From a virus (Duplodnaviria; Caudoviricetes): a DNA stretch of 56,938 nt. Both the position numbers and the translations under genes were made by a program. Shown piece after piece: positions 1 through 56,938 of this stretch. The notes under the pieces are model-generated. The model did no database searches. It was not told the origin of the DNA and saw nothing but the letters and a program-made list of their open reading frames with translations. The stretch covers positions 1 to 56,938 of IMG/VR virus record IMGVR_UViG_3300030107_001272; one strand, given 5' to 3'. Position 1 is the first letter of the stretch. Each line of letters starts with the position of its first letter.

Positions 1-416
1 AACCAAGTGTGGTTGGTGATGCTGCATGGAATAAATGGAAAAACAAACATGAAACTGATGACTATGGCAGATATGTTTGGGAAGAGTACACGTTTACTGA
101 ATGGACAATTCCTGCCACTGACACAGAAGAAGCAGTTCATCATAGCTACCCTACTGACTACATTCCGAGTGATTTAACAGCACCAAGTGATGCGACTGTA
201 GTTTCAAAAGATAGCGATGGTACAAACCTTATGAGAAGAAAACTTAACAGTAGCTATAACCCCTCTACGACTTATATCCCAAGAGAGCAAAGACCAGAAT
301 GGGATGCTGTAGGAATGATGGGAAAACTCCGTATTCGTAAAGGGCAAACTGTAGGTGACAGGTGGATTAAGATGCGTGACGTATCTTCTTCTGTCGAAGA
401 ATGGCTAGTAAAATAG
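1..416 (+). CDS. 5'-truncated tail spike/fibre with a C-terminal peptidase G2-like intramolecular chaperone domain
   Basis: Frame is open to the window edge. Motifs PSVVGDAAWNKW...DDYGR and YIPREQRPEWDAVGMMGKLRIRKGQ resemble the peptidase G2 autocleavage domain. Confidence 0.75.
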   Translation, partial: PSVVGDAAWNKWKNKHETDDYGRYVWEEYTFTEWTIPATDTEEAVHHSYPTDYIPSDLTAPSDATVVSKDSDGTNLMRRKLNSSYNPSTTYIPREQRPEWDAVGMMGKLRIRKGQTVGDRWIKMRDVSSSVEEWLVK

Positions 417-427
417 GAAAATAACAA

Positions 428-1783
428 ATGAGTAGAGCCAGAGACATTGCTAATCTACAAAGTGGTGGCGTTATAAATGACGCTAGTGCCGACTTAGACT
501 TTCGTATTGAGAGTAACGGTTTAACTCACGCTCTTTTTGTTGATGGTGGTACTGACACTGTTACGATAGGAACAAGTAGTACTGACGCTTACAGTTCAGC
601 AGATAATCTTGTTGTAGGAACTGGCTCTGGTCACAATGGCATAACAATATTTTCTGCCAATGCAAATCAGGGTACAATATTTTTTGCAGATGCTCTAGGT
701 GGTGATAGTGATGCTTCAACGTATGATGGTTATATCATTTATGATCATAGTGCTAGGCACTTTAGATTTGGCACAGCAGGTGGAGAACGTGTCAGGATAA
801 ATAGTGATGGTGATTTACTTTTGGGTTCTAGCACAGACGCAGGATACGGCCCTCTGCAAATTGGAAGCACATCAACAGCAAGCACTATTCTACAAATGCT
901 AGCTGCTGACGATGGCTATAATACTATTCACTTTGGAGATGGAACATCAGGAACTGCTAGGTATAGGGGGTATGTTCAATATAACATGGCTGATGAAGCT
1001 ATGATGTTTGCCACAGGTGCTACTGAACGCATGAGGATAGATAGTTCTGGTAAAGTGGGTATTGGCACAAATTCGCCTAGCCGTAATTTGACAGTGAGTT
1101 CATCAAGTCAAACAGATTTAGCTATTGTTGCAGGAACTTCTTCATCAGCACAATTATGTTTTGGAGATAGTGGTGACGATAACATAGGGCAGATTGAGTA
1201 TAATAATTCTAGTAATTATATGGCTCTTTATACAAATACTACTGAACACATAAGGATACATTCTAATGGTAATGTAAAAATAGGGCAAAATACTGGTACT
1301 TTACTTGATAATTGTCCTCTTCAAATTGAAAGGGAAGAATCTAGTAATGACTCTTGTGTAAGAACAAAGAACCCATCAACTAATTCAAGGTTTCATTTTG
1401 ATTTTTGGAATAGTAGTGGAACTCAGGGAAACATAACGGTAAACGCATCTTCTGTTAATTTCAATTCTACGTCAGACTATAGGAAAAAAGAAAATGTAAA
1501 TTATGATTGGGATGGAACAACGGAAATTAAAAAATTAAAACCTGCTAAGTTTAATTTTATTGGTAGCTCAGATACTATCCAAGGATTTTTGGCACATGAA
1601 GTTTCTAGTGTCGTGCCGATTGCTGTTACTGGAGAAAAGGATGGAACTGAAAAATATACTGATGAGGATGGTAAAGAAAAAACAAGAGAAGTCTATCAAA
1701 GTATGGATGTTTCAAAACTTGTACCTCTTTTGGTCAAAACAATACAAGAATTAGAAGCACGAATAGCAAAGTTAGAGGAATAA
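428..1783 (+). CDS. tail fibre protein with C-terminal S74 chaperone domain
   Basis: Repeats ERVRINSDG/ERMRIDSSGKVGIGT. C-terminal TSDYRKKEN...LKP...GFLAHEV...LVKTIQELEARI. Confidence 0.85.
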   Translation: MSRARDIANLQSGGVINDASADLDFRIESNGLTHALFVDGGTDTVTIGTSSTDAYSSADNLVVGTGSGHNGITIFSANANQGTIFFADALGGDSDASTYDGYIIYDHSARHFRFGTAGGERVRINSDGDLLLGSSTDAGYGPLQIGSTSTASTILQMLAADDGYNTIHFGDGTSGTARYRGYVQYNMADEAMMFATGATERMRIDSSGKVGIGTNSPSRNLTVSSSSQTDLAIVAGTSSSAQLCFGDSGDDNIGQIEYNNSSNYMALYTNTTEHIRIHSNGNVKIGQNTGTLLDNCPLQIEREESSNDSCVRTKNPSTNSRFHFDFWNSSGTQGNITVNASSVNFNSTSDYRKKENVNYDWDGTTEIKKLKPAKFNFIGSSDTIQGFLAHEVSSVVPIAVTGEKDGTEKYTDEDGKEKTREVYQSMDVSKLVPLLVKTIQELEARIAKLEE

Positions 1784-11645: not shown

Positions 11646-12135
11646 TCCACAAGACATAGATTTATTTAATGCCCCTATTCCCGGCCAGTCTTTAACGGCT
11701 GAACTAGGAAGTAGACCTTGGCAAAAACCCCCACAACTAACCACTGTTGAGGAAGTAATAAACTATTACTCCGATAAGTTTTTAGAGCCAAAGGTTTCTG
11801 CTGATCTTGTTACCATGATGAGTGATGATATACCTATTACTGTTATTGTAGACTCTACGATGTTAGCAAATGTAATGGAAGGTAAACATACTATAGATGT
11901 GGGTATGTTAGTTGCTCCATTTCTTGTGGAGATGTGTTCGTTCTTAGGAGATGAAGCAGGAATAAAATATACAACAGGATTAGACGAAGAAGAAGATAAC
12001 AGTATTGTGGATACCGTAGCTGCAAGACAGGTTATGTCGGAGTTTAAATCGGAAGTAGGGCAAGGCACACCTACTGAAGAAGAGGAAGCACCTGAACCAG
12101 TTAAGTCAGGATTAATGGCAAGAGGAGCAGTATAA
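11632..12135 (+). CDS. conserved phage protein (probable internal virion protein)
   Basis: FNAPIPGQSLTAELGSRPWQKPP motif; acidic tail ending GLMAR. Confidence 0.65.
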   Translation: MPRVNPQDIDLFNAPIPGQSLTAELGSRPWQKPPQLTTVEEVINYYSDKFLEPKVSADLVTMMSDDIPITVIVDSTMLANVMEGKHTIDVGMLVAPFLVEMCSFLGDEAGIKYTTGLDEEEDNSIVDTVAARQVMSEFKSEVGQGTPTEEEEAPEPVKSGLMARGAV

Positions 12136-12929: not shown

Positions 12930-15900
12930 TGCCACTATTTACAGTTACAGCACCTGACGGAAAAAAGTACACTATAAATGGGCCAGAGGGTTCTACTCAA
13001 CAAGATGCTATTCTTGAGGTGCAAAAACAACTTAGTACTCAACCTTCTACCACTCCTGATACAGACAATACAGTAGAAGCGTTGACTCAACCTACACCTG
13101 AAGAAGATGAAAGAGCTAGAATAAAACAAGATACAATAGAAGAGTTAAAAGAGGATGACTTTACTTATAGTGATCTAAAACAAAATCAAGAAGTGCAGAA
13201 TGCTGCTATTAGATTTGCTAATAATAGATGGGGAGAAGACAGTGTAGCTCCTGAAGATGCTATTGATGAAGTAATAGAACACTTTAGAAGCTTTGATGTT
13301 AATGAAATAACTGCAGGGCGTGACTTTGGCTATGTTAGTGGCCTAAAAACAGATGGAAAAGAAGCAGAACTTAACGACTATAGATTGTTGTTTAATGCGT
13401 ATAATGAATTACCTAATCTGTATGAAGAAGGGGCAGCTCCTGGTGCATTCTTGGACTATGCAGAAGGCTTACTTACTGCACCCTCTACTTGGATTGGTGC
13501 ATTACTACCTGTAAGTGGTGGTAAAATTGCAGGTCAAGCAGCTGTACAAGCATCTAAGCTAGGTATTGCTAGGCTTGTTGGAACTATGGCAGCTAATCCA
13601 ATTAAAACTACTATTGCAGTTGAGGGGTTAGGTGGCGTTGCACAAGATGTTGCGGCACAAAAAACTTTAATAGAAGCTGATATACAAAAAGAATATTCAG
13701 AAGCACAGACAGGTATAGCCTTTGCACTAAGTGCAGCACCTGCCTCTCTTATTCCTTTGTTTGCTAAACAAAAAACAGTAGCTTGGGTGGAAAGAAATAC
13801 AGGCAATATTATTGAGGAATCTACTGAGGCTATTAAAAAACGTACAGAAAATGGTAATAAAAAAGTAGATACATTTTTGTCAGGTAAAAAACTAGATGAA
13901 AAACAAACTCTATTTAATAACATAGCTACTAGATTATCTACTGCTGATGAAACACTTAGACCTTTAAACGAACAACTAGTAGCAAAAGGACAAACAACTC
14001 TTAAAGGTATCCAAGGTTCTAAAAATGTATACAATGAAGCAGACATAAATGCACCCTTAAAATTGTCTATAGAAGCTCAACGATTTAAAAATATTACAGG
14101 GGCTTTGTCTGAATTTCTATATAAAAATGGAGGACTTCAGGAAGGAGAAAGAATCACTGAAGGACTAGCACGTGCATTAAGAAAGCAAGGAGCAACCGAT
14201 GAAGTTGCTGATAACTTTGGAGAATTTTTAAAGAAATATAATCTAACCACTGATGATGTAGCAAATGTTTTTATGTCTGAAGTATCTGAAGCAGGTAGGC
14301 TTCTTCAAACGGTAGGTATGGAAAAGAAAAACTTTAATAAGTTTATGCAAGACTTAGATGATATTGCAAACTATGATCTATTTGGATTTGATAAACAAGC
14401 AGTTGAAAATATAAAGAAAGCTAATAAAGTTGCTAAAGATGGTAGTGTAAGAAGCTCTTTAGGTGGTGGGTTAAAGGCTGTTGATCAAGCAAGACTTGCT
14501 TTTATGACTTCTCAAGTTGGTACGACAGTACGCAATACTATATCTGGATACTCACGTATAGGTTTTGATGTACTAACTCAAACTGTGAATAGAGGAATAC
14601 AGAAAGCCACAGGCACTGCACCGTTAACTCCTAACAGTGATGTGTTTGCTATTGCTTATGGTCTTGTTAATAGAAAAGAATCTAGTGCAGTACGATCTAT
14701 TTTTCAAGAGGGGTTTGGTAAAGAAGCAGGTAGACTATTCAGAGAACTAGCTGATGTTCAAGATGTAACTAACGGAAAAGTATCTAGACTACACGGTGTA
14801 TCACGACAATTAAATGCACTGAATACTTTGAGCGATAATATGTTTAAACAAGCTGCCCTCACTGGAAGTTTAAAAAGACAACTCAATGTTATGTATAGCA
14901 AAGCATTAGATGCAGGGGCAAAGATAGATGGCAAACTAGTAACTAAAGAAAACTTTGATCTAATTGAAATTATGAGAACAGGTAGATTCAACGATGTATT
15001 TGGTACTAAGGATGGAAAAGTTGCACTCAAGCAAGCTGTAGAAGAGGCATTAGAATTTACATATCAAAGATCTTTTCAGAATGATACAGCCAGAGCATTC
15101 TCTAATGTAGTGCATGCTGTTCCTTTTATTGGTACATCTTTTGTACCCTTCCCTAGATTTATGATGAATGCTATGAAGTTTACTTATGAGTACTCACCTT
15201 TTAATATGGCTGCTTATCGTGAGGCTTTTCAAGTTGCAACTGGAACAGGACAACGTGAGATAGGACAATCGTATGAGCAAGTATCTAAGGGTATGGTAGG
15301 AGTTGCTGCTCTTGCAGGTGCTACTGCGTTTAGAATGTCTGAACTAGCAGGAGATAGATGGTATGAAGCAAGAAGCACAGAGGGTGGCACAACAGATCTA
15401 AGACCTATGTTTCCTGCAGCACCCTATCTATTCTTAGGTGATTTAATAGCAAGACAGATAAAAGGTGAGCCTGTTATGGAGAATAGAAGAACTATACAGG
15501 ATGGTATACAGGCTATTAGTGGCGCACAATTTAAAGCAGGTATGGGATTATACATGCTTGAAAATGGTTTAGAGGATCTTACTTCAGGTGATACAGAAAG
15601 AGTTAATAAAATGATAGCTAACTTTGGTGCTAACATACTTAGTACTTTTACAATACCTGCCACTGTTCTTCAAGACCCATACAATACATTTATATCTAAA
15701 GACGATGAACGCATCATTAAAGATACTAACAGCGATAGTATGTTTAATTTGATTGTAAATAAAACAATTGCTAGATTACCGGGCAACAATGCTTTAGCGG
15801 AATATCTAGAAGATACTTTAGGTAAGGATATTTACAAAGCACCAGAACCTTTAGAGGTAGCATCAAGTGGCGAAACCATACGAAGAACTACGCCACTTAC

Positions 15901-25921: not shown

Positions 25922-26683
25922 TTATACTCCTATGTTGGTTAGGTTTTCTATATCTATTTCGTTTCTATACTTCAAGTCATCGGTCAACTTCAATACACCT
26001 ACCTTGTCTACGTGTTGGCGTAGCTCTTTGGCGAACTGCATTGTCTTAGGTAACGCATCGGGATCTAACGCTACAATTGCTGTTGAGAACTGCGACAAGT
26101 ACTTCTTGTGTGCTTCGGAAAGTGACGTACCCAACACAGCCACCCCGACATATACGCCAATCTCGCCTACAACTACAGCACTGACGCAATCCTCAACAAC
26201 TACAGCAACAGTACCACACCCATAAGTAAAAGGCAAGTCACTATTGCCATACCTTTTCCACTTAGGTAGTCGTTGGTCTGTTGCCCTACCGATTGCGTCT
26301 ACACATCTCCACGATTTCCATATGGTAAACACAACACGATCCTCTTTAACATCGTACATCAACTCCAGATCTTTAGGTAGTCGGTATTGATCTACAAACT
26401 TTTGTGTATAGGATGGTTGATAGACTAGTTGTTTAGGTAACTCCCAATCTATATCACTACTAGTATCCTCTGGTGGTGCAAAAGATTTCTTAATGTCCTC
26501 TGCACTCAAGCGTACACGCTTACCCCCACTCACAGTACAGTTAGCTTTATAACAATTCCATATCAAGCTACCCATATTGTTAGTGATAGTAAATGTTTTC
26601 CTACCCCTACACACAGGACAGTCAACACGTTTAGTCTCACCATTCTTAACATCATAATCCCATACACTCCACATGTTATACAC
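25922..26683 (-). CDS. DNA primase (zinc ribbon plus TOPRIM)
   Basis: CPVC...CYKANC, VVEDCVSA, ALDPDA. Confidence 0.85.
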   Translation of the reverse strand: MYNMWSVWDYDVKNGETKRVDCPVCRGRKTFTITNNMGSLIWNCYKANCTVSGGKRVRLSAEDIKKSFAPPEDTSSDIDWELPKQLVYQPSYTQKFVDQYRLPKDLELMYDVKEDRVVFTIWKSWRCVDAIGRATDQRLPKWKRYGNSDLPFTYGCGTVAVVVEDCVSAVVVGEIGVYVGVAVLGTSLSEAHKKYLSQFSTAIVALDPDALPKTMQFAKELRQHVDKVGVLKLTDDLKYRNEIDIENLTNIGV

Positions 26684-30489: not shown

Positions 30490-30839
30490 TTTCTCGTACT
30501 TTCTATGCTGTTAATCTTGTGTTCAAGTGTATGAACAGCATGACGTAATCCATAGGTTATACTATCTGTCCACTTATCTTGTGTTATCTCTGGCTTCTCG
30601 TCAATGTACACTCTAATGTGGGTACAAGCCTCAATAGGCGCACCTTTTGACCAATAGGTATCAGGGTACTTAACCTTGTCAAGGTACTGCCCCTTGACCC
30701 TTATATTGTATCTGTGCTTGTTTAAGTATTTCTTCATCAGCCTTACCAACTGCTGTCCTTCTTCGTCATTAGGTATCTCACAGAATTGATAGCGTGAATT
30801 CTTTTGGTAGTGCTTATGCTTTTCTAAATTAGTTTTCAT
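30486..30839 (-). CDS. hypothetical protein
   Basis: 117-aa ORF with ATGA overlaps. Confidence 0.6.
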   Translation of the reverse strand: MKTNLEKHKHYQKNSRYQFCEIPNDEEGQQLVRLMKKYLNKHRYNIRVKGQYLDKVKYPDTYWSKGAPIEACTHIRVYIDEKPEITQDKWTDSITYGLRHAVHTLEHKINSIESTRK

Positions 30840-31828
30840 CTCTTTACTCCTTTCAATGCTTGGTATCCACAGCCACAGCCATCAAACAAACTCACGACAG
30901 TACCAAGTGACTGTTCAGGTATGCCATTGAGTATGTGCTTGATCACATCCACTGTCCATCCATTACCTATCATCTTGTATCGCCTTGAATTGCTGATCTG
31001 TTTGACCTGTTTATCAGGGAAGATACCTACCTTGGTATACCAATCGGGCATAGTCTGCAATCGTTCACACTCAAGAGGTGTCAATGCTCTCCAACGTAAG
31101 TCACCATCCTCAACCTTCGGCATGCGCCACCCACCTTGCATGGTGGTCAGGCCAGAGGACTTAGCCTTACGAGAGTAGACACGCTTGATGATGTCATAGC
31201 CTTTGAGGTTAGCTTCACCCACTTGTCTGCATTGAGTATGCTTGTTGAACACCACTTGTCTACGTGCTTTCTCAAAGTACATCTTCATAGATCCACCCTT
31301 AAAATAGTTAGCGTCTACACAGTAGGCTTTCTCTCTGTCGGTCATGCTCTCATCCTCAAGGATATCCTCAAGGTTGATACCAAGATCAGGCAGATCGTCA
31401 TGGGGTATGTTAGTCCAATACAAACGCTTACGATTCTGTGCAGATACAGACGCAGAGTTATGTACACGTGGCTCACATCCGAACTCACGTGAGAACACAT
31501 CCATATATTCCTTCTTCATAGGAGTTTCTTCAATGAGAAAGTACTTAGGTTTCCACTGGTGGAACAACCTAAAGAACTCTATTGTAGGCTTGGCTCTCTC
31601 GTCATTAAAGTTAAGCTGATTACCTGCAAAGGAGAATGGTTGACAAGGTGGGCCTGCCATTAGCAGGTCTATACCTTTGTGTACATACATAGGCTGTTTA
31701 AATACATTATTTCTAACGTGCCTGATACCAAGTACACTACCTATCTGCTTTACGTCAGGGTGATTGTAGTGAGCGACCCCCATAGCGTAGGGGTCTATCT
31801 CACTTGCGAATGCTTGTTGGTATTGCAT
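30836..31828 (-). CDS. DNA cytosine-C5 methyltransferase, circularly permuted
   Basis: ASEID (II), GPPCQPFS (IV), QNRKRLYW (VIII), LTPLECERLQ (IX), IGNG (X), then VVSLFDGCGCG (I) at the C-terminus. Confidence 0.88.
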   Translation of the reverse strand: MQYQQAFASEIDPYAMGVAHYNHPDVKQIGSVLGIRHVRNNVFKQPMYVHKGIDLLMAGPPCQPFSFAGNQLNFNDERAKPTIEFFRLFHQWKPKYFLIEETPMKKEYMDVFSREFGCEPRVHNSASVSAQNRKRLYWTNIPHDDLPDLGINLEDILEDESMTDREKAYCVDANYFKGGSMKMYFEKARRQVVFNKHTQCRQVGEANLKGYDIIKRVYSRKAKSSGLTTMQGGWRMPKVEDGDLRWRALTPLECERLQTMPDWYTKVGIFPDKQVKQISNSRRYKMIGNGWTVDVIKHILNGIPEQSLGTVVSLFDGCGCGYQALKGVKR

Positions 31829-40264: not shown

Positions 40265-40744
40265 ATGAACATGAGTTATACATTAAGTTCAAGAAGCTTG
40301 AGCAAATTAGAAGGCGTACACGAATACTTAGTGAGTATCGTAAAAGAAGCGATAACCCTGACTAAGGTTGATTTTGGAGTGATCTGCGGCCCCCGGACAA
40401 AAAGTGAACAGGCTGCTCTCGTTAAGTCGGGAGCTTCACAAACAATGAATAGCCGCCACCTACCCCAAGCATCAACAGGTAAATCACACGCTGTAGATCT
40501 TATGGCTTATTGTGGATCAAGGGCAAGTTGGGAGTTGAATCTTTACGATGACATAGCTGACGCAATCAAAGCCGCCGCTGTTACGCAAGGACATCCTGTA
40601 ACATGGGGTGGTGCGTGGCATAAGAAGTTAAATGATTGGGATGGTAGCTCTGTGGATTTAATGAATGAGTATATAGATACAAGACGTAGCCAAGGCAGAA
40701 AACCCTTTATAGATGGGCCGCATTTTCAACTTGAAATAAACTAA
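40265..40744 (+). CDS. endolysin, M15 family (L-Ala-D-Glu peptidase-like)
   Basis: LSSRS..KLEGVH, SRH, HAVD, WGG.W, DGPHFQL. Confidence 0.88.
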   Translation: MNMSYTLSSRSLSKLEGVHEYLVSIVKEAITLTKVDFGVICGPRTKSEQAALVKSGASQTMNSRHLPQASTGKSHAVDLMAYCGSRASWELNLYDDIADAIKAAAVTQGHPVTWGGAWHKKLNDWDGSSVDLMNEYIDTRRSQGRKPFIDGPHFQLEIN

Positions 40745-43172: not shown

Positions 43173-45305
43173 ATGGCTGATGAAAAAGACAATATAATGA
43201 TAGATGATGAAGCTATTGCTATTGGCGATTCACCTAACGAAGATAGAAATATACAGAATATTATTTCTTTTGTTTTAGAAAAATATAAAAAAGCAGAAGA
43301 CTATAGACAAACTGATGAACAACGATGGCTTAAAGCATATAGAAACTATAGGGGTCTATACGGATCGGATGTTCAATTTACTGAAGCAGAAAAGTCGAGA
43401 GTCTTTATTAAAGTAACAAAAACAAAAACATTAGCGGCGTATGGACAAATTGTTGAAGTACTGTTCGCTAATAACAAATTTCCATTATCTATTGATCCTA
43501 CGGTACTTCCCGAAGGAGTTGTAGGTGATGTACATTTTGATGCAAAAAAACCTGAACAGTTAAAAAATAATGACGAGATGGAAAGCCCTTATGGTTTTGC
43601 AGGAGATGGCAAAGATATACCTAAAGGTGCAACACAAGATAGTTTAATGGAAATGCTTGGCCCATTAAAAGATGATCTTAAAGGAATAGAAAGTCTAGAA
43701 GAAGGTGCAGGAAAATCTCCTAGTGCTGCTACGTTTAGTCCTGCTATGGTAGCGGCTAAACAGATGCAAAAAAAGATACACGATCAACTTGAAGAGTCAG
43801 GAGCAACTAAGCATCTAAGAAGTACCGCATTTGAAATGGCTCTATTTGGTACAGGGATAATGAAAGGCCCATTTGCTATAGATAAAGAATATCCTAATTG
43901 GGATGAAAGTGGTGATTATAGCCCTAAGTTTAAAACAATGCCACAACTATCGCACGTATCGGTTTGGAACTTTTATCCTGATCCAGATGCTAATAACATG
44001 GATGAAGCTCAATACGTTATTGAAAGACATAAAATGTCACGTAGCCAAGTGCGTTCATTAAAAAAGCGACCACACTTTAGGGCTTCAGCTATTGATAGTT
44101 GTATAGAAATGGGAGAAAATTACGATAGAGAATATTGGGAAAGCGATTTAGCCGACTATTCTTTAGAGCATAATATAGATAGATTTGAAGTGCTAGAGTA
44201 TTGGGGTACAGTTGATACTGATCTTATTAAAGAACAGGGCATTACTGTACCTAAAGAATTAGAAGCGTTTGATGAGTTGCAAGCTAATGTTTGGATATGT
44301 AATGAAAAGGTATTAAGGTTTGTATTAAATCCATTTAAACCTGTACGTGTTCCCTATATGGCTGCACCGTATGAATTAAATCCTTATAGTTTCTTTGGAA
44401 TAGGCATAGCAGAAAATATGGATGATACGCAAACTCTTATGAATGGTTTTATGCGTATGGCTGTAGACAATGCTGTACTATCAGGTAATTTATTAATTGA
44501 GATTGACGAGACTAATTTAGTTCCCGGTCAAGATTTAAGTGTATATCCTGGTAAAGTTTTTAGAAGACAAGGTGGCGCACCTGGTCAGGCTATCTTTGGA
44601 ACAAAATTTCCTAATGTATCAAACGAAAACCTACAGCTATTTGACAAGGCTAGAGTATTAGCAGATGAATCTACAGGTTTTCCTTCTTTTGCACATGGAC
44701 AGACAGGTGTATCGGGCGTAGGTAGAACAGCCAGTGGTATCTCTATGCTTATGAATGCAGCTACTGGTAGTATTAAAACGGTTATAAAGAATATAGATGA
44801 CTACATGCTCAAACCAATAGGCGAAGGTTTTTTTCAATTTAATATGCAGTTTGACTTTGATCCTGAAATAAGAGGGGATTTAGAAGTGAATGCAAGAGGA
44901 ACAGAAAGTCTTATGGCTAACGAGGTGCGTAGTCAAAGACTAATGCAGTTCTTACAAGTTGCTTCTAACCCTGCACTTGCTCCCTTTGCTAAGATGGATT
45001 ATATTATCCGTGAGATTGCAAAGGCTATGGATCTTGATCCTGATAAGGTAGCTAATGATATGAGAGAAGCTGCCATACAAGCAGAACTTATGAAAGCTTT
45101 CCAACAACAACAACCCCCACAACAAGGCGCACCTGCAGGTGCAGATGCTATGGATACCTCTGGAGCAGGGGGTGGAAATATAGGTGTAGGACAAGCTCCT
45201 ACGCCAAATGAACAAGGATTTACAGGAAATGCACAACAAGGAGCAGCTACTCAATCGCCTCAAGGTGGTGGTCAACAATCCCCAACAGTGGGAAGTGTTC
45301 AATAA
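43173..45305 (+). CDS. portal protein
   Basis: 710 aa following terL; FGTGIMK, FYPDP, TASGISML; Q/G-rich tail. Confidence 0.85.
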   Translation: MADEKDNIMIDDEAIAIGDSPNEDRNIQNIISFVLEKYKKAEDYRQTDEQRWLKAYRNYRGLYGSDVQFTEAEKSRVFIKVTKTKTLAAYGQIVEVLFANNKFPLSIDPTVLPEGVVGDVHFDAKKPEQLKNNDEMESPYGFAGDGKDIPKGATQDSLMEMLGPLKDDLKGIESLEEGAGKSPSAATFSPAMVAAKQMQKKIHDQLEESGATKHLRSTAFEMALFGTGIMKGPFAIDKEYPNWDESGDYSPKFKTMPQLSHVSVWNFYPDPDANNMDEAQYVIERHKMSRSQVRSLKKRPHFRASAIDSCIEMGENYDREYWESDLADYSLEHNIDRFEVLEYWGTVDTDLIKEQGITVPKELEAFDELQANVWICNEKVLRFVLNPFKPVRVPYMAAPYELNPYSFFGIGIAENMDDTQTLMNGFMRMAVDNAVLSGNLLIEIDETNLVPGQDLSVYPGKVFRRQGGAPGQAIFGTKFPNVSNENLQLFDKARVLADESTGFPSFAHGQTGVSGVGRTASGISMLMNAATGSIKTVIKNIDDYMLKPIGEGFFQFNMQFDFDPEIRGDLEVNARGTESLMANEVRSQRLMQFLQVASNPALAPFAKMDYIIREIAKAMDLDPDKVANDMREAAIQAELMKAFQQQQPPQQGAPAGADAMDTSGAGGGNIGVGQAPTPNEQGFTGNAQQGAATQSPQGGGQQSPTVGSVQ

Positions 45306-50602: not shown

Positions 50603-50605
50603 CTA

Positions 50606-50998: not shown

Positions 50999-51008
50999 AG
51001 GATTTTTA

Positions 51009-51479: not shown

Positions 51480-53716
51480 TGGCTTTAGTTGTAAAAGACA
51501 GAGTTAAAGAAACAACCACAACAACTGGTACAGGTACAGTTACATTAGGTGGTGCTGTATCTGGGTTTCAAACTTTTACTTCAGTATTATCAAATGCTGA
51601 TACAACTTACTATGCTATTATAGATTATACTAATAATGAATTTGAAGTAGGACTAGGAACATTTACATCTAGTGGCACAACACTAGCACGTACAACCATA
51701 CTGGAAAGTTCTAACTCTGGTAGTGCAGTAGACTTTGGCAGTGGAACTAAAGAAGTCTTTATTACCTACCCTGCAGAAAAGTCTGTGTATCTTGATGCAA
51801 GTAACCAACTTGTAATCAATGGTACTGCAGTAACAGCTAGTGCAACTGACCTCAATCTTATTGATGGAATTACAAACGGCACAGTGATTGCAAGTAAAGC
51901 TATTATTACTGACAGCAATAAAGACATATCGGGTGGCCGTAACATTACAATCTCTGGTGAGTTAGATGCTGCTACTTTAGATATAAGTGGTAATGCTGAT
52001 ATTGATGGCACACTTGAAGCTGATGCCATAACTATAGATGGAGTAACACTAGTAGAAACAATCAGCGATACTGTTGGTGCAATGGTATCTAGTAATACTG
52101 AAACAAATATTACTGTTACCTATGATGACTCTGATAATACATTAGACTTTGTTATTGGAACACTTAATCAAGATACTACTGGTAATGCTGCTACAGCTAC
52201 TGCATTAGAAACTGCCAGAACAATACATGGTGTATCTTTTAATGGTACAGCTAACATAGATCTATCAGAGGTAATAGAAGATACTGTTGGTGCTATGTTT
52301 AGCTCTAATACAGAAACTAATATTACAGCTACGTATCAAGATGGCGATGGAACAATAGATTTAGTTATAGGTACGCTAAATCAAGACACAACAGGAACAG
52401 CCGATAACTTTACAGTAAGTGCTAATAACAGTGCAGATGAAACAGTCTATCCTGTATTTGTAGATGGAGCTACAGGAAGCCAAGGTGCAGAGACAGATAC
52501 TGGATTAACTTACAATCCCTCTAGTGGTATGCTTACCTCTACAGGGTTTACAGGTGCATTGACAGGTAATGCAAGTACAGCAACTACATTAGAAACTGCT
52601 AGAACCTTGGGTGGAGTTTCTTTTAATGGCTCTGCTAATATTAATCTTCCCGGTGTAAATACTGCAGGTAATCAAAATACAAGTGGGAATGCTGCTACAG
52701 CTACGTTATCTTCTACAGTTACAGTTACAGATAGTACAGCTAATACAAACTTTCCTGTCGTATTTCACGATGAAAGCAATTCTTTACTTGACGATACTGG
52801 AGCTTTAAGGTATAATCCAAGTACAGGTGAATTACTTGTACCAAAGCTAACAGTAGCAGGTGCAACAACAGTTGTTGATACTGTTACTATGAATGCATCT
52901 AATGCTATTATCTTTGAGGGTGCAACGGCTGATGCCCATGAAACTACATTAAGTATTGTAGATCCAACGGCTGATCATACACAATACCTAATCAATCAGG
53001 GTGGATATATACCTGTACTTTCTGCAGCGACTACAACAGCAATTACTTCTACACCTGCAGAACTCAACATCATGGATGGCGATACATCAGCTTCTTCTAC
53101 AACTGTAGCAGACGCAGATAGAGTTGTTCTTAACGACAATGGAACAATGAAGCAAGTTGCTGTAACAGATTTGTCAGCTTACTTTGACGATGAAATAACG
53201 GCAATGCCTAACTTAGTTACAACTGCTGCAACAACAGTAGGGGCATTAAACAGTGGAAGTATTACAAGTGGGTTTGGTACTATTGACACTGGTAGTTCTG
53301 CTATTACTACAACTGGCTTAATCTCTGGTGGCTCATTAGATATAGATGATGTTGTTATTAATGGTACAACTATTGGTCATACAAACGATAGTGACTTAAT
53401 TACTGTTGCAGATGGTCTTGTGACTATTGCAGGAGAGATTAGTACTACAACACTAGATATTGGTGGAACAAATGTCACTTCAACAGCAGCTGAACTAAAT
53501 ATACTTGATGGTGTAACTTCTACTGCTACTGAACTTAACATTATGGATGGAGATACTTCAGCATCCTCTACAACATTAGTAGATGCAGATAGGGTTGTAG
53601 CAAATGATAATGGTACTATGAAACAGGTTGCACTTACCGATATTAAAACTTACTTGACAACTGCAGGATACGCTTCACAAGATGACGCTACAGCATTAGC
53701 AATAGCATTAGGATAG
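51479..53716 (+). CDS. tail fibre protein
   Basis: KDRVKETTTTTGTG N-terminus, TATALETARTI repeats, C-terminal ALAIALG. Confidence 0.75.
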   Translation: MALVVKDRVKETTTTTGTGTVTLGGAVSGFQTFTSVLSNADTTYYAIIDYTNNEFEVGLGTFTSSGTTLARTTILESSNSGSAVDFGSGTKEVFITYPAEKSVYLDASNQLVINGTAVTASATDLNLIDGITNGTVIASKAIITDSNKDISGGRNITISGELDAATLDISGNADIDGTLEADAITIDGVTLVETISDTVGAMVSSNTETNITVTYDDSDNTLDFVIGTLNQDTTGNAATATALETARTIHGVSFNGTANIDLSEVIEDTVGAMFSSNTETNITATYQDGDGTIDLVIGTLNQDTTGTADNFTVSANNSADETVYPVFVDGATGSQGAETDTGLTYNPSSGMLTSTGFTGALTGNASTATTLETARTLGGVSFNGSANINLPGVNTAGNQNTSGNAATATLSSTVTVTDSTANTNFPVVFHDESNSLLDDTGALRYNPSTGELLVPKLTVAGATTVVDTVTMNASNAIIFEGATADAHETTLSIVDPTADHTQYLINQGGYIPVLSAATTTAITSTPAELNIMDGDTSASSTTVADADRVVLNDNGTMKQVAVTDLSAYFDDEITAMPNLVTTAATTVGALNSGSITSGFGTIDTGSSAITTTGLISGGSLDIDDVVINGTTIGHTNDSDLITVADGLVTIAGEISTTTLDIGGTNVTSTAAELNILDGVTSTATELNIMDGDTSASSTTLVDADRVVANDNGTMKQVALTDIKTYLTTAGYASQDDATALAIALG

Positions 53717-53719
53717 GAT

Positions 53720-54079
53720 ATGGCAAATACATTTAAAGTAGTTTCACATGATGTAATGCCTGCTTCAGCAGGTACACCAGAGGATCTATATACAACACCC
53801 TCAAGCACAACAACGGTTGTCTTGGGTTTAATATTATCTAACGTACACACTTCTCAAGTTACAGCATCAGTAAAACTTGTAAGTGATACATCTGGTGGTG
53901 GTAGAGCTGCAACAAATACTACAACCTTCTTGTTAAAAGATGCTCCTATTCCTGTAGGGTCTTCATTAGAAATACTTTCAGGTAATAAGGTAGTGTTAGA
54001 AACTACAGATCAAATAGAGATAGACTGTTCAGTGGCTGATAAAGTGTCAGCAACACTAAGCATTATGGAGATTACTTAA
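53720..54079 (+). CDS. small beta-sandwich tail fibre connector
   Basis: MANTFK...LYTTP...GNKVVLETTD...SIMEIT. Confidence 0.6.
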   Translation: MANTFKVVSHDVMPASAGTPEDLYTTPSSTTTVVLGLILSNVHTSQVTASVKLVSDTSGGGRAATNTTTFLLKDAPIPVGSSLEILSGNKVVLETTDQIEIDCSVADKVSATLSIMEIT

Positions 54080-56499
54080 TGGGTTACATTGGGTTAAGTG
54101 CTAGAAATGACATAAGGATTACCACGATTGGTAGTGCCAATCTAGATGGATCTGTTATTGTCAATGAGAGTAGTGCTGATAAAGACTTTAGAGTAGAGTC
54201 TGATGGTAATACTCACATGCTCTTTGTTAATGGTGGAAATAACTGCGTTGGTATTGGCAATGCAAGTCCTACCTCAACTTTACATATAAGTGGTACTGTT
54301 ACGGCAACTGGTGATCTTCAAGCCCCTGGAATTTATGTTGGAGCTACAAATACTAGTTATGATTTCTATAATAACGGTACTTCATATTTTAATGGTGTTG
54401 TAACCTTAGATAAAAACACTACTTGCAATGCTGATTTTCAAGCTGCAGGAGTTTATGTTGGGGCTACAAACACTAGCTATGATCTTTATAATAATGGTAC
54501 ATCTTATTTTAATGGTGCTGTAATTGTAGATGATAATCTAACCGTTAATGGTACAATAAATGGAGTAGGTATATCTTATAATATTGCTAATTTTAGTGAA
54601 AGTATGCTCATTAGCAATGATGCAGGTACAGGAACTTTAAGTACAGCTAGTAACAACACAGGCTTTGGACATGAAGTATTTGATGATTTAACAAGTGGCA
54701 ATAACAATACAGCAATAGGGCGTTCAGCAGGAGCAAAAGTTACATCAGGTAATGAAAATACACTTATAGGATCAAACGCAGGTGATGCAATAACTGACGC
54801 AGATTATAATGTAGCAATCGGTTATAATGCTTTAACAACTAACACGATAGGAAGTAAATCTATTGCAATAGGCCGTAACTCCCTTCTTTTTCAAATTCCT
54901 GACTCAGCTTTAGATTGTCATAATATAGCTATTGGTGATGGAGCAGGGTCACAAGTAACAACAGGTAGATTTAATGTTTTTATTGGTAATGATGCAGGTG
55001 ATAACTTTAATACTGGAGGAGCTAATACAGCAATAGGCCATGCTGCTTTAAGTGGAGATACCAAAGGTGATCAGAGCGTTGCCATAGGCACAGGCGCATT
55101 AAACGCTCAAAACTTTACCTCTGCTACTGATGCTTACAATACGGCTGTAGGGCGTTCAGCAGGTTTGTTGTTACAAACAGGCGTACAAAACACTATTATT
55201 GGTGCTTTAGCAGCTGATGCAGCAACTACTCCAGATACTTGTACTATTATAGGTTATCAAGCATGTGGTGATGGAGTTCTAACAGGAAACAGAAATGTTG
55301 TTATAGGTGGAAACGCAGGGTTGGGTCTGACCGAAGGAAGAGATAATGTAATAATTGGGAATAATGCAGTTGATGCTGATACTAAAGGTTGGGCAACTAC
55401 TGCTATAGGCTATTCTGCACTAGGCGCACAAACTTTTACTTCAGGTACAGAGGCAAACAACCAAAGTGACAATACAGCAGTAGGCTATTTTGCAGGTAGC
55501 TTAACTACAACAGGTAAGAAAAACACTTATATTGGCTCTTTAGCAGGTGATGATTGTATAGATGGCAGTTTCAATACTGCTATAGGGTATAATACTTTAA
55601 GTGCTGATCACGGAGATCACAACACAGTAGTTGGTAATCTTGCAGGAAATCTTTCTACAGGCACAAGAAACACTTTAGTTGGAAGTATGGCAGGTGATAA
55701 TTTAACTCTTGGTAATGATAATGTATGTCTTGGTGCTTATACTTTAGATGCAGGTAATACTGATTCACAGAATGTGGCTATAGGAACGTATGCATTAAAT
55801 AATCAAGTAGGGGGTGGAGGAAGTGCAAATGCAATGAACAACACTGCTGTTGGGTTTAATGCAGGAAGAAACCTTACTTCAGGATACTACAACACTTTTA
55901 TTGGTAATTCAGTTGCTACAGCAGGTACAGTTACTGGAACTGATAATACTATGATGGGTTATTTAGCAGCTTATTCTCTTAGTAGCGGTAGTAATAATCT
56001 ATGTTTAGGTAAAGAAGCAGGTCGTACAGGTAGTCCTGGTGGCAATGTAACTACTGGTTCTAATATTATTGTATTAGGAGATGAAAATATATCATCAGCT
56101 AATATACAAGTTGATTGGTCTGTAGCTTCTGATGAAAGAGATAAGACAGATTTTAATACACTGAACTTAGGTTTAGATTTTGTAAAAGCTATGAAACCAT
56201 ACACTTTTAAGTGGGATAAACGTTCTAAGTATGGTGATAAACATGCAGAGGATTATGATTTAGATGCAATAACTTCTGATGGTACTCATAAAGAAGATTG
56301 GTTAGATTTAGGTTTTAAAGCACAAGATGTTAAAGCACTAGAAGAAGCATCTAATTATAAGATTGCAGATAAAACAAACTTAACTGTAAGTGTTACGGAT
56401 GATGGCAAACAATATGGAATGAGGTACTCTAAGTTAGTTCCAATCCTAGTTAAAGCAATACAAGAACTAGAAGCTAAAGTAGCAAAGTTAGAGGAATAA
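54079..56499 (+). CDS. tail fibre with NxAxG repeats and S74 chaperone
   Basis: Many NTAIG/NTAVG repeats; SDERDKTD...GFKAQDV...LVKAIQEL. Confidence 0.85.
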   Translation: MGYIGLSARNDIRITTIGSANLDGSVIVNESSADKDFRVESDGNTHMLFVNGGNNCVGIGNASPTSTLHISGTVTATGDLQAPGIYVGATNTSYDFYNNGTSYFNGVVTLDKNTTCNADFQAAGVYVGATNTSYDLYNNGTSYFNGAVIVDDNLTVNGTINGVGISYNIANFSESMLISNDAGTGTLSTASNNTGFGHEVFDDLTSGNNNTAIGRSAGAKVTSGNENTLIGSNAGDAITDADYNVAIGYNALTTNTIGSKSIAIGRNSLLFQIPDSALDCHNIAIGDGAGSQVTTGRFNVFIGNDAGDNFNTGGANTAIGHAALSGDTKGDQSVAIGTGALNAQNFTSATDAYNTAVGRSAGLLLQTGVQNTIIGALAADAATTPDTCTIIGYQACGDGVLTGNRNVVIGGNAGLGLTEGRDNVIIGNNAVDADTKGWATTAIGYSALGAQTFTSGTEANNQSDNTAVGYFAGSLTTTGKKNTYIGSLAGDDCIDGSFNTAIGYNTLSADHGDHNTVVGNLAGNLSTGTRNTLVGSMAGDNLTLGNDNVCLGAYTLDAGNTDSQNVAIGTYALNNQVGGGGSANAMNNTAVGFNAGRNLTSGYYNTFIGNSVATAGTVTGTDNTMMGYLAAYSLSSGSNNLCLGKEAGRTGSPGGNVTTGSNIIVLGDENISSANIQVDWSVASDERDKTDFNTLNLGLDFVKAMKPYTFKWDKRSKYGDKHAEDYDLDAITSDGTHKEDWLDLGFKAQDVKALEEASNYKIADKTNLTVSVTDDGKQYGMRYSKLVPILVKAIQELEAKVAKLEE

Positions 56500-56502
56500 C
56501 AT

Positions 56503-56938
56503 ATGCCCTATTTAGGTAAAACTCCATCTCAAGGTGTAAGATCTCGTTACCAGTTTACCCCTAACGCAGGTACAACTAGTCTCTCTGGTGCTGATGCCAA
56601 TGGAGATACCCTGACGTTTACTGATGGTAACTACGTGGATGTTTACCTCAATGGAGTTATGCTGAAAGCAGGAGTGGACTATGTAACAACCACAGCTAAT
56701 ACTATTGGTAGTCTTGCTGCTACTGTCGCTAGTGATGTTGTGGATGTAATCGTGTACGACACCTTCAGTCTTTTTGGTGGTACACTTGAGGGTAATGTTA
56801 AAGTAAATAATGGTACGCTTAATGTAACAGGTGCAACAGATCTTGACAGTACACTTAATGTGGATGGTGCTAGTACTTTTGGTGGTGTGCTAAAAGCCCC
56901 TGATGGTTCTAACTCTGCCCCTGCCTATACATTTTCAG
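56503..56938 (+). CDS. 3'-truncated tail fibre/spike protein (not in the ORF track)
   Basis: MPYLGKTPSQGVRSRYQF...VDVYLNGVML...DGSNSAPAYTFS; open to the window end. Confidence 0.75.
   Translation, partial: MPYLGKTPSQGVRSRYQFTPNAGTTSLSGADANGDTLTFTDGNYVDVYLNGVMLKAGVDYVTTTANTIGSLAATVASDVVDVIVYDTFSLFGGTLEGNVKVNNGTLNVTGATDLDSTLNVDGASTFGGVLKAPDGSNSAPAYTFS

What the first reader, a model, noticed from the sequence alone, without database searches (positions are those of the whole stretch)
1..56938. Apparent genome-wide avoidance of GCTGG/CCAGC, with CCGG also scarce
Seen: GCT is a very common Ala codon here, yet every Ala-Gly pair I checked in 54079-56499 (about 16) is GCA-GGN, and the Pro-Ala pairs I saw use CCT-GCN. 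ACTGG and TCTGG are plentiful. I found no GCTGG or CCAGC by eye, though the scan was not exhaustive. The few CCGG sites I saw (about 11681, 15779, 40393, 44524, 52650) are all in CCCGG/CCGGG context. Inference: strong selection against a non-palindromic 5-mer, such as a type IIS/III restriction site, a BREX/DISARM-type motif or a Chi-like site.
Basis: partly seen in the sequence, partly recalled or inferred. Interest (0 to 1): 0.7.

Follow-up and report, generated by a model that had tools for sequence, protein, structure and literature searches.

The report
Phage genome purged of GCTGG sites
This marine phage genome has no copy of the five-letter word GCTGG or its complement where about 55-75 are expected, most likely because its hosts carry a DNA-cutting defence that recognises that word.

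Summary
The window is a whole 56,938-bp genome of an HMO-2011-type marine podophage. It holds 0 GCTGG/CCAGC. A codon shuffle expects 75.7±6.6 and a dinucleotide-preserving synonymous shuffle expects 55.9±5.2. It is the most depleted of all 512 5-mers.

The word is removed by synonymous codon choice: 119 of 119 Ala-Gly pairs use GCA and 45 of 45 Pro-Ala pairs use CCT. It is missing in every reading frame and in both orientations relative to the genes.

The trait is patchy among relatives. It occurs in 20 of 80 portal-anchored contigs and needs at least 8-10 changes on the portal tree. It is still under selection: 1,348 substitutions against a sister contig made no site, where 7.6 are expected. 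It recurs in the cultured Pelagibacter phage HTVC115P (1 site, 39 expected). Other pelagiphages show the mirror image, with GCAGG purged and GCTGG in excess.

CCGG is also scarce, and all 5 sites lie in CCSGG. Many other short words are also missing: GGNNCC, GDGCHC, GGWCC, GGGAC, CGCG.

Best reading: the phage escapes a host restriction-type nuclease that recognises the asymmetric 5-bp site CCAGC/GCTGG. The host and the enzyme are unknown. This is a known kind of phenomenon with a new motif, in an abundant phage group.

The parts
1..56938 (.). Whole phage genome without any GCTGG or CCAGC
   Evidence: counts of 0 and 0. (the window is the whole assembly, one contig). (expected 30-80 by Markov models, 75.7±6.6 by codon shuffle, 55.9±5.2 by dinucleotide-preserving shuffle).
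54079..56499 (+).
   Evidence: 16 of 16 Ala-Gly pairs are GCA-GGN, although GCT is used for 34 of the gene's 85 Ala codons.
43173..45305 (+). Portal gene, used as the anchor for relatives and for the codon-level comparison
   Evidence: At 9 alignment positions where relatives carry GCTGG/CCAGC, all 19 avoiders keep the amino acids with other codons. Examples: CGC-TGG becomes CGA-TGG and CCA-GCC becomes CCT-GCT.
11680..11684 (.). CCGG site 1 of 5, inside CCCGG
15779..15783 (.). CCGG site 2 of 5, inside CCGGG
40392..40396 (.). CCGG site 3 of 5, inside CCCGG
44523..44527 (.). CCGG site 4 of 5, inside CCCGG
52649..52653 (.). CCGG site 5 of 5, inside CCCGG
30836..31828 (-). Phage-encoded C5 cytosine DNA methyltransferase. 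It is a second, complementary anti-restriction device; its specificity is unknown.
   Evidence: PF00145, E 1.6e-26. (phrog_116). (only the catalytic core matches solved methyltransferases, so no specificity can be read).
29734..30489 (-). PAPS-reductase-like gene two genes from the methyltransferase
   Evidence: PF01507, 23.3 bits, just above the cut-off. (phrog_424, E 2.8e-44).
26676..27788 (-). Tyrosine integrase, so the phage is possibly temperate
   Evidence: phrog_1, E 3.5e-32.

Best explanation
The genome has been purged, by natural selection on mostly synonymous positions, of every copy of the asymmetric 5-bp site CCAGC/GCTGG. Bacteria in its natural host population most likely carry a sequence-specific, modification-dependent nuclease that recognises this site on unmodified incoming DNA. 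The likeliest form is a restriction-modification system of the type IIS kind; type III is the next candidate. A phage with no site cannot be recognised, whatever strain it last grew in.

What is shown:
- The total absence of the word.
- Its statistical weight.
- How the word is avoided at the codon level.
- Its patchy distribution among relatives.
- That selection against it is still acting.

What is inferred:
- That the selecting agent is a host nuclease.
- The class of that nuclease.
- That it is polymorphic among host strains.

GCTGG is one item in a larger set of words eliminated from this genome: GGNNCC, GDGCHC, GGWCC, GGGAC, CGCG, and CCGG outside CCSGG. The genome also carries a C5 methyltransferase, which points to a host population with many restriction specificities.
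For: 1. Size of the effect. 0 observed against 75.7±6.6 and 55.9±5.2. It ranks first of 512 5-mers under both nulls.

2. The signal is at the level of double-stranded DNA. On the coding strand, GCTGG is expected 41.1±4.5 times and CCAGC 15.1±3.0 times, and both are 0. All three reading frames are affected: 119 of 119 Ala-Gly pairs use GCA, 45 of 45 Pro-Ala pairs use CCT, no codon ending in GC precedes Trp, no codon ending in CC precedes AGC, and no G-CTG-G or C-CAG-C occurs.

3. Specificity. One-letter neighbours of the word without CpG lie at 0.72-1.72 of expectation, apart from CCTGG at 0.46. GCAGG is in excess, 188 against 109.

4. Synonymous replacement. At 9 portal positions where relatives carry the word, all 19 avoiders keep the amino acids.

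5. Continuing selection. 1,348 substitutions over 18,987 aligned bases between the window and sister contig L001 made 0 sites. Random placement of the same changes gives 7.6±2.7, and 0 of 1000 simulations reached 0.

6. The trait is not intrinsic to the phage type.
- 20 of 80 portal-anchored IMG/VR loci have observed/expected below 0.2. Pooled, they show 5 sites against 247 expected; the other 60 show 1367 against 971.
- At least 8-10 changes are needed on the portal tree of 79 rows.
- L005 (0 of 10 expected) and L075 (15 against 11) are close neighbours on that tree and are 83.6% identical in DNA. At 7 of 11 aligned sites they differ by the central T/A swap.

7. Replication in independent samples. 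The window's five closest kin from other metagenomes, pooled, have 0 sites against 98 expected. In a second sample anchored on the methyltransferase gene, 20 of 27 HMO-2011-type loci avoid the word, against 2 of 19 unrelated phages that share only the methyltransferase.

8. A cultured case. Pelagibacter phage HTVC115P has 1 site against 39 expected over its full 54,819 bases.

9. The mirror image. Pelagiphages HTVC026P, 111P, 112P and 202P have GCAGG at 1/15, 0/12, 3/12 and 0/13 (observed/expected) and GCTGG at 50/12, 44/11, 41/11 and 42/12. HTVC023P and HTVC027P avoid neither word. The choice between the two words is therefore a selected, switchable state.

10. Precedents for a system with this specificity. 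The type III methyltransferase ModD1 of Neisseria meningitidis methylates CC(m6A)GC (PMC4417156, passages read). Related asymmetric methylated motifs are CCAGCC (m6A) in Casimicrobium (PMC13515534, table passage) and CCAGCG (m4C) in a marine Micavibrionaceae bin (PMC9296519, passage).
Against: 1. No host and no enzyme were identified. The only hits in bacterial genome collections were phage contigs binned into MAGs of unrelated phyla.

2. The laboratory host does not impose the trait. HTVC104P (47 sites against 28 expected, in 34,360 of its 54,359 bases) was isolated on the same strain, HTCC7211, as HTVC115P. The selecting system therefore has to sit in other wild strains.

3. One preprint passage says restriction-modification systems are rare in SAR11 (10.1101/2022.09.19.508504). 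If the relevant hosts are SAR11-like, this fits poorly.

4. A survey of phage genomes found avoidance mainly for orthodox type II sites, very rarely for type III, not at all for types I and IIG, and weaker in temperate phages (PMC6286503, abstract and passages). This phage has an integrase, and the only CCAGC-specific enzyme I could cite is type III.

5. The main texts of two marine methylome papers hold no CCAGC or GCTGG. Their supplementary motif tables could not be opened.

6. Locus L024 keeps two sites in head-to-head order. A type III enzyme should be able to cut that arrangement.
Confidence: 0.8

Rival explanations
1. The selecting agent is another motif-reading defence, such as BREX or DISARM, rather than a classical restriction enzyme. 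These systems mark the host's own DNA by methylating an asymmetric site and block unmarked phage DNA.
For: The site is asymmetric and has an adenine on only one strand, read directly from the word. Total loss of sites would also escape such systems. Nothing separates this from a restriction enzyme.
Against: The avoided word is 5 bp. All listed 6-mer extensions are equally absent, with 23.7-32.3 expected for each. The BREX motifs I know of are 6 bp; this is recalled and was not checked. The same genome and its pelagiphage counterparts also lack many 4-6-bp palindromes and 5-bp words of the kind that classical type II and IIS enzymes cut.
Confidence: 0.1
2. The cause lies in the phage itself. 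Either a phage-encoded nuclease or packaging enzyme acts on GCTGG, or the phage's own C5 methyltransferase marks this word and a host methylation-dependent (type IV) nuclease then cuts it, so the phage loses the sites it would otherwise mark.
For: Avoidance is enriched among HMO-2011-type contigs found through the methyltransferase gene (20 of 27), compared with contigs found through the portal gene (20 of 80).
Against: - No sequence-specific nuclease is recognisable. The genome has only an endonuclease VII-like resolvase, a Cas4-like exonuclease and the terminase.
- No DNA methyltransferase is annotated in HTVC115P, yet it avoids the word.
- Close neighbours on the portal tree differ in the trait.
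- The changes are mostly central T/A swaps, not the C-to-T changes expected from decay of methylated cytosine.
- A site used for packaging would occur at least once.
Confidence: 0.05
3. It is a translational or mutational bias with no DNA-recognising agent. Examples would be a disfavoured codon pair (GCU-GGN), or a context-dependent mutation pattern shared with the host.
For: The largest single contribution is the Ala-Gly codon pair: 119 pairs, all using GCA.
Against: - The reverse complement is also absent from coding strands (15.1 expected).
- The word is absent in the two other reading frames too.
- Shuffles that keep codon usage and dinucleotides still expect 55.9.
- Phages grown on the same host strains show the opposite choice. 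On HTCC7211, HTVC111P and HTVC112P purge GCAGG, HTVC115P purges GCTGG and HTVC104P purges neither.
Confidence: 0.02
4. It is avoidance of a Chi-like recombination hotspot or of a CRISPR PAM.
For: GCTGG is the first five letters of the E. coli Chi sequence (recalled). PAM depletion in phages has been reported (PMC4246573, seen only as a search listing and abstract start).
Against: By established knowledge, Chi protects linear DNA from RecBCD and works in one orientation, so removing it from both strands brings no benefit. A 5-letter PAM removed completely from both strands is not a reported pattern, and this was not tested here. The company this word keeps, a dozen classical restriction-type words also at zero, points to restriction.
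Confidence: 0.02
5. It is an artefact of sequencing or assembly.
For: The window is a metagenome-type assembly. The single residual sites in L001 and L076 lie within about 200 bases and 80 bases of contig ends, where assemblies are least reliable.
Against: The same absence is seen in at least 20 portal-anchored and 28 methyltransferase-anchored contigs from many metagenomes, and in a cultured, completely sequenced phage. Sibling phages from the same study have normal counts. Amino-acid sequences are conserved across the replaced sites.
Confidence: 0.01

Closest known systems
Restriction-site avoidance in phage genomes, as surveyed by Rusinov et al. 2018 (PMC6286503; abstract and passages read)
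   Same: A short recognition-type word is completely eliminated from a dsDNA phage genome. The survey reports complete or almost complete elimination for about one-tenth of viral genomes.
   Different: The survey found avoidance mainly for orthodox type II sites and weaker avoidance in temperate phages. Here the top word is an asymmetric 5-mer, the phage carries an integrase, and no cognate enzyme or host is known.
ModD1, a type III methyltransferase of Neisseria meningitidis that recognises 5'-CC(m6A)GC-3' (PMC4417156; passages read)
   Same: It recognises exactly this 5-bp word, with the only adenine on one strand.
   Different: It belongs to a human-associated betaproteobacterium and acts as a phase-variable regulator. 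No homologue was sought or found in marine hosts here. It shows only that such a specificity exists.
GANTC depletion that partitions the phylogeny of Pelagibacter phages (PMC9516812; abstract and passages read)
   Same: A methylation or restriction-type motif is present or absent in marine pelagiphage lineages in a patchy way.
   Different: That motif is a palindrome tied to the CcrM-type cell-cycle methyltransferase. In this window GANTC is not depleted (108 observed against 125 expected). Neither CCAGC nor GCTGG occurs in that paper's main text.
Phage T7 and EcoP15I: type III sites all kept in one orientation
   Same: A phage escapes an enzyme that reads an asymmetric site by changing how the sites are arranged.
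   Different: T7 keeps its sites in a single orientation. Here both orientations are removed entirely.

Membership tests
Restriction-site avoidance (phage counter-defence by loss of target sites) | The word is far rarer than composition-preserving and codon-preserving nulls predict | tested here: met
   0 observed against 75.7±6.6 and 55.9±5.2. Markov expectations are 30.5-80.2.
Restriction-site avoidance (phage counter-defence by loss of target sites) | The depletion acts on double-stranded DNA, in both orientations and all reading frames | tested here: met
   Coding-strand expectations are 41.1 for GCTGG and 15.1 for CCAGC, and both are 0. All three frames are affected.
Restriction-site avoidance (phage counter-defence by loss of target sites) | Sites are replaced without changing the protein where the residues are conserved | tested here: met
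   At 9 portal positions, 19 of 19 avoiders keep the amino acids with other codons.
Restriction-site avoidance (phage counter-defence by loss of target sites) | A host enzyme with that specificity exists and restricts site-bearing phages | not testable with these tools
   The host is unknown. The genome-collection scan gave only phage contigs binned into MAGs. Kin of a virus record cannot be drawn.
Target of a type III restriction-modification system | An asymmetric 5-6-bp site with the methylatable adenine on one strand only | tested here: met
   CCAGC has one A and GCTGG has none, read directly from the word. ModD1 methylates CC(m6A)GC.
Target of a type III restriction-modification system | Escape is possible through a single orientation, so strand-asymmetric avoidance is expected and pairs of head-to-head sites are not tolerated | tested here: inconclusive
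   Both orientations are at 0, which is uninformative. Residual single sites occur in HTVC115P, L001, L055 and L076. L024 keeps a head-to-head pair. The survey saw type III avoidance only rarely.
Target of a type IIS (orthodox, asymmetric) restriction enzyme | An asymmetric 4-7-bp site, where a single site is enough for attack so that complete elimination is favoured | tested here: inconclusive
   Complete elimination is seen. Other eliminated asymmetric 5-mers occur in this genome (GGGAC 0, CTCAG 16 against 55-65) and in pelagiphages (GGTGA, ACTGG, CCTTC, CAGTG). These match type IIS recognition sequences as I recall them. No enzyme for GCTGG was found in the papers searched.
BREX/DISARM target motif | An asymmetric motif, 6 bp in the described BREX systems (recalled) | tested here: not met
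   The avoided word is 5 bp. The listed 6-mer extensions are all 0, with 23.7-32.3 expected for each. The length rule is recalled, not checked.
Chi-like recombination hotspot | It acts in one orientation and benefits the DNA that carries it | tested here: not met
   Both orientations are removed. The benefit argument rests on established knowledge of RecBCD and Chi.

The most novel reading that the evidence does not exclude
GCTGG/CCAGC and its one-letter variant GCAGG/CCTGC are the targets of a widespread, strain-polymorphic defence locus, perhaps alleles of one enzyme family that differ in the central base. This locus would sit in the streamlined marine Alphaproteobacteria that HMO-2011-type phages and pelagiphages infect. 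One preprint passage calls restriction-modification rare in one of these groups, SAR11. The combinatorial set of words missing from each phage genome would then be a readable negative imprint of the hosts' pooled restriction repertoire. It could be used to assign uncultured phages to host populations and to discover enzymes that isolate genomes miss.
Probability: 0.3. Interest if true: 0.7.

Novelty: new member of a known kind. Interest (0 to 1): 0.45.

Why it matters
HMO-2011-type phages are described as among the most abundant viral groups in the ocean (PMC9038755, abstract). That paper's main text does not contain the words restriction, methyltransferase or methylase.

A word that is absent from one in four of these genomes, and from some pelagiphages, implies a strong and common sequence-specific barrier in host populations whose defences are poorly known.

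The barrier is switched on and off between near relatives and is mirrored by a one-letter variant. The pattern gives a concrete motif to look for in marine methylomes. It also gives a cheap marker for sorting uncultured phages by the host defences they have faced.

Tried and rejected
1. A broader motif, GCKGG or GCBGG. In the window GCGGG is 0 and GCCGG is 1. HTVC115P, however, has GCGGG at 16 against 6 expected while GCTGG is 1 against 39. Both extra words contain CpG, which is depleted overall (1015 observed against 2121 expected). I therefore treat them as separate from GCTGG.

2. Finding the host.
All were phage-like contigs inside MAGs labelled Bacteroidetes, Flavobacteriales, Neomarinimicrobiota, Endobugula or uncultured. 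I do not take these as hosts.
- No tRNA gene is present to mark an attachment site.
- Relatives of a virus record cannot be drawn.

3. Specificity of the phage methyltransferase. Only the catalytic core matches solved enzymes, so no specificity can be read. In the window and its five closest kin, GGCC (65 against 109 expected) and CCSGG (16 against 21) are kept while other CCGG is 0 against 36. This would fit protection of one of these words by the enzyme, but I could not test it.

4. Type III orientation test. Too few residual sites were available.

5. Public runs.
- DNA like the window is held in part by 20 listed rows from 11 marine or aquatic metagenome studies. One of them may be the source.
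- When contigs of 4 runs were laid on 36939-56938, 0 of the 40 single-letter differences shown create a site.
- 1329 further differences were not shown, and only about 0.3 site would be expected among 40 (1351 of 170,814 possible changes make a site). This says nothing either way.
- One inserted stretch from a divergent contig (run X2, table 5c) does contain the word.

6. Literature. Searches for CCAGC with methyltransferase and restriction, HMO-2011-type, metaepigenomic marine motif, restriction site avoidance with phage and pelagiphage restriction-modification avoidance found no description of GCTGG/CCAGC avoidance in marine phages. Supplementary tables of the methylome papers (PMC8919816, PMC9516812) were closed and may list such a motif.

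Full report
WHAT THE WINDOW IS

The window is the whole assembly: one contig of 56,938 bases with 38.6% G+C. Its genes are those of an HMO-2011-type marine podophage.

- The portal protein is 75.2% identical to Roseobacter phage CRP-1, 73.2% to Puniceispirillum phage HMO-2011 and 49.2% to Pelagibacter phage HTVC115P.
- Other genes include terminase, major head protein, tail fibre and spike proteins, family A DNA polymerase, DnaB-like helicase, primase, ribonucleotide reductase and MazG.
- It also has a Cas4-like exonuclease, an endonuclease VII-like resolvase, a tyrosine integrase (26676-27788, minus strand) and a C5 cytosine DNA methyltransferase (30836-31828, minus strand; PF00145, E 1.6e-26).
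- A simple greedy gene call gives 67 genes and leaves 3,422 bases non-coding.

CHECK OF THE OBSERVATION

- GCTGG and CCAGC each occur 0 times.
- The five CCGG sites are exactly at the positions named. Four are CCCGG and one is CCGGG.
- Gene 54079-56499 has 16 Ala-Gly pairs, and all 16 are GCA-GGN.
- Genome-wide, 119 of 119 Ala-Gly pairs use GCA, although GCT is 43% of Ala codons. All 45 of 45 Pro-Ala pairs use CCT, although CCA is 29% of Pro codons.
- The other two reading frames are clean too. No AGC, TGC, CGC or GGC codon precedes Trp. No codon ending in CC precedes Ser-AGC. CTG is never flanked by G on both sides, and CAG is never flanked by C on both sides.

Expected numbers of GCTGG+CCAGC:

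- Base composition: 48.5.
- First-order Markov: 75.2.
- Second-order Markov: 80.2.
- Maximal-order Markov: 30.5. This model is itself pulled down, because CCAG/CTGG is the most depleted 4-mer.
- 300 shuffles of synonymous codons within each gene: 75.7±6.6, minimum 57.
- 300 stricter shuffles that also preserve every dinucleotide: 55.9±5.2, minimum 42.

Under both shuffles this is the most depleted of the 512 strand-merged 5-mers. On coding strands alone, 41.1±4.5 GCTGG and 15.1±3.0 CCAGC are expected, and both are 0. The signal is therefore not tied to the mRNA.

One-letter neighbours of the word are ordinary: ACTGG 0.72, TCTGG 0.77, GCTGA 1.02, GCTGT 0.97 and GTTGG 0.92 of expectation. GCAGG, the main synonymous substitute, is in excess (188 against 109). 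The listed 6-mer extensions are all 0, with 23.7-32.3 expected for each. The avoided unit is exactly these five base pairs.

CCGG

CCGG is 5 against 34.7±5.0 (codon shuffle) or 15.3±2.8 (dinucleotide-preserving shuffle).

- CCGG not flanked so as to form CCSGG is 0 against 28.8 or 13.0.
- CCSGG is 5 against 6.1 or 2.5.
- The same holds in the five closest relatives from other metagenomes, pooled: DCCGGH 0 against 36 expected and CCSGG 16 against 21.

I have no tested explanation for this. Protection of CCSGG, or of overlapping sites, by a methyltransferase is one possibility.

GCTGG IS ONE OF MANY ELIMINATED WORDS

Observed counts against the codon shuffle and the dinucleotide-preserving shuffle:

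| Word | Observed | Codon shuffle | Dinucleotide-preserving shuffle |
|---|---|---|---|
| GGNNCC | 1 | 46.2 | 36.1 |
| GDGCHC | 0 | 34.3 | 16.4 |
| GGGAC | 0 | 29.6 | 16.8 |
| GGWCC | 0 | 24.6 | 10.6 |
| GGACG | 1 | 32.8 | 15.8 |
| CGCG | 0 | 22.0 | 6.9 |
| RGCGCY | 0 | 18.2 | 7.5 |
| GGYRCC | 0 | 17.1 | 16.7 |
| CTCAG | 16 | 64.8 | 55.2 |

GATC, GANTC, AGCT, CTAG, CATG and GTAC are not depleted. As far as I recall, most of the eliminated words are recognition sequences of classical type II or IIS enzymes. Those enzyme names are recalled and come from no call.

RELATIVES: THE TRAIT IS PATCHY AND REPLICATED

A scan of IMG/VR with the portal protein confirmed 594 relatives, of which the best 80 loci were kept.

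- 20 of the 80 have observed/expected GCTGG below 0.2. Pooled, they show 5 sites against 247 expected in 201,861 bases. The other 60 show 1367 against 971.
- Two of the five residual sites lie within about 200 and 80 bases of contig ends.
- A portal tree was built from 79 rows. L010 and L018, both avoiders, were left out because their best matching segment held a stop. On this tree the trait needs 10 changes, 8 of them forced by well-supported branches, against 17 for shuffled labels.
- L005 (0 against 10 expected) and L075 (15 against 11) are close neighbours on the tree. They are 83.6% identical over 5,742 aligned bases. Of 11 aligned sites in L075, 7 differ in L005 only by the central T/A swap.
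- In a codon alignment of the portal genes, the word occurs at 46 positions in one relative or another. At 9 of these, all 19 avoiders keep the amino acids and use other codons. The window keeps the amino acids at 15 positions, differs at 29 and has a gap at 2.

A second, independent sample was anchored on the methyltransferase gene: 79 loci, 59 of them at least 9 kb.

- 20 of 27 loci that share at least 8 genes with the window avoid the word.
- 6 of 13 loci that share 2-7 genes avoid it.
- 2 of 19 loci that share only the methyltransferase avoid it.
- The five closest relatives (methyltransferase 89-93% identical, from other metagenomes) pooled have 0 sites against 98 expected.

SELECTION IS STILL ACTING

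The window and the sister contig L001 differ by 1,348 substitutions over 18,987 aligned bases, and none of them makes a site. I placed the same changes at random positions of the same base, codon position and strand. This gives 7.6±2.7 new sites, and none of 1000 simulations gave 0.

CULTURED PHAGES

Partial or full records of 20 cultured or GenBank relatives and pelagiphages were counted.

- None of the Roseobacter phages examined (CRP-1, -2, -3, -9, -13, -207, -345, -738) avoids GCTGG. The lowest is CRP-9, at 10 against 27 expected. HMO-2011 does not avoid it either.
- Pelagibacter phage HTVC115P has 1 site against 39 expected over its full 54,819 bases.
- HTVC104P was isolated on the same strain, HTCC7211, and has 47 against 28 in the 34,360 bases read.
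- Four other pelagiphages (HTVC026P, 111P, 112P and 202P, 22 kb each) show the mirror image. GCAGG is 1/15, 0/12, 3/12 and 0/13 (observed/expected), and GCTGG is 50/12, 44/11, 41/11 and 42/12.
- HTVC023P and HTVC027P avoid nothing.

Two conclusions follow. The isolation hosts do not impose the trait. Phages that grow on one and the same strain carry opposite imprints.

Each phage in this group lacks its own combination of words: GGNNCC, GDGCHC, CCWGG, GATC, GGCC, GCGC, TCGA, GGGAC, GCTGG.

INTERPRETATION

The pattern has these properties:

- It is specific to one 5-bp word.
- It is blind to strand and reading frame.
- It is achieved by silent changes.
- It is maintained against mutation.
- It is gained and lost among close relatives.
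- It sits among a dozen classical restriction-type words.

This is what escape from sequence-specific restriction of unmodified DNA looks like. I put 0.8 on that explanation. The class of enzyme is open.

- Type IIS. A survey of phage genomes found strong avoidance mainly for orthodox type II systems, very rarely for type III and not for types I or IIG (PMC6286503, abstract and passages). This favours an orthodox type IIS-like system.
- Type III. CCAGC has its only adenine on one strand. The one enzyme I could document with exactly this specificity is the type III methyltransferase ModD1 of Neisseria meningitidis (PMC4417156, passages).
- Related motifs. CCAGCC (m6A) and CCAGCG (m4C) are reported in Casimicrobium and in a marine Micavibrionaceae bin.
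- BREX- or DISARM-like systems are not excluded.

Four kinds of rival fit poorly, for the reasons given under the rival explanations:

- A phage-intrinsic cause.
- Codon-pair or mutational bias.
- Chi or PAM avoidance.
- Assembly artefact.

WHAT DOES NOT FIT WELL

- No host or enzyme is identified.
- The phage has an integrase, and the survey found weaker avoidance in temperate phages.
- If the hosts are SAR11-like, restriction-modification is said to be rare in them (preprint passage).
- The window's fingerprint overlaps that of several pelagiphages (GGGAC, GGWCC, GGNNCC, GDGCHC, CGCG and CCGG). However, its G+C (38.6%, and 41-42% in its closest kin) is above the 31.9-35.4% given for the pelagiphage-like subgroups (PMC9038755, passage). 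The host remains open.

NOVELTY

Restriction-site avoidance is a well-known phenomenon. What appears to be new:

- The motif itself.
- Its prevalence in a globally abundant phage group.
- The one-letter mirror variant.
- The combinatorial fingerprint.

The searches named under Tried and rejected found no description of these. The main HMO-2011-type paper does not mention restriction or methyltransferases in its main text. Supplementary motif tables of the marine methylome papers could not be opened and might list the motif.

I rate this a new member of a known kind, with interest 0.45.

Noticed in passing
window 33519-33559, 33805-33845, 34087-34127, 34554-34594: A conserved 21-nt element (AAATTGTCCGACATCGGACTT on the + strand) occurs four times. 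It contains a 5-bp inverted repeat. Three copies lie just upstream of consecutive minus-strand early genes and one lies inside gene 34250-34954. As RNA the hairpin is weak (-7.8 kcal/mol, z -1.4). It may be a promoter or operator of the early region.
   Followed up: partly
window, whole genome: Many other short words are eliminated. Observed against codon shuffle / dinucleotide-preserving shuffle: GGNNCC 1 vs 46/36, GDGCHC 0 vs 34/16, GGGAC 0 vs 30/17, GGWCC 0 vs 25/11, GGACG 1 vs 33/16, CGCG 0 vs 22/7, RGCGCY 0 vs 18/7.5. ATCGAT is 0 vs 13/4, which is weak under the stricter null.
   Followed up: partly
window, 12 sites (for example 7441, 14129, 42236, 55816): GGAGG/CCTCC is depleted (12 observed against 64.7 or 39.8 expected). 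Of the 12 sites, 11 lie on the coding strand. None sits at ribosome-binding distance from a called start; one is 1 base from a start. The cause is unknown.
   Followed up: partly
L103, L106, L107, L108 (Pelagibacter phages HTVC026P, 111P, 112P, 202P; first 22 kb of each): GCAGG/CCTGC is purged, with GCTGG in three- to four-fold excess. Many asymmetric 5-mers are near zero in the pooled data: GAGCT 4/109, CCTTC 4/106, CAGTG 9/98, ACTGG 4/86, GGTGA 3/79.
   Followed up: partly
L102, L104 (Pelagibacter phages HTVC023P, HTVC027P): These two pelagiphages avoid none of the words tested, although they share a host strain with heavy avoiders. Their records list 2OG-Fe(II) oxygenase-like genes and a putative methyltransferase, so they may use another anti-restriction route.
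   Followed up: no
L081-L087 (genome collection): HMO-2011-type phage contigs, some 55-63 kb long, sit inside MAGs labelled Bacteroidetes, Flavobacteriales, Neomarinimicrobiota and Endobugula. They are probably binning errors and are unsafe as host evidence.
   Followed up: no
window 1712-1783 and 56428-56499; 6322-6663 and 53003-53640: Two tail-fibre-like genes end in the same 72-nt C-terminal module (76% identical). Repeat modules are also shared between the 5389-8508 tail-spike gene and the 51479-53716 gene.
   Followed up: no
window 29734-31828 (-): A PAPS-reductase-like gene (phrog_424, E 2.8e-44) lies two genes from the C5 methyltransferase, with a 117-aa ORF of no known family between them. 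This may be a DNA-modification module.
   Followed up: no
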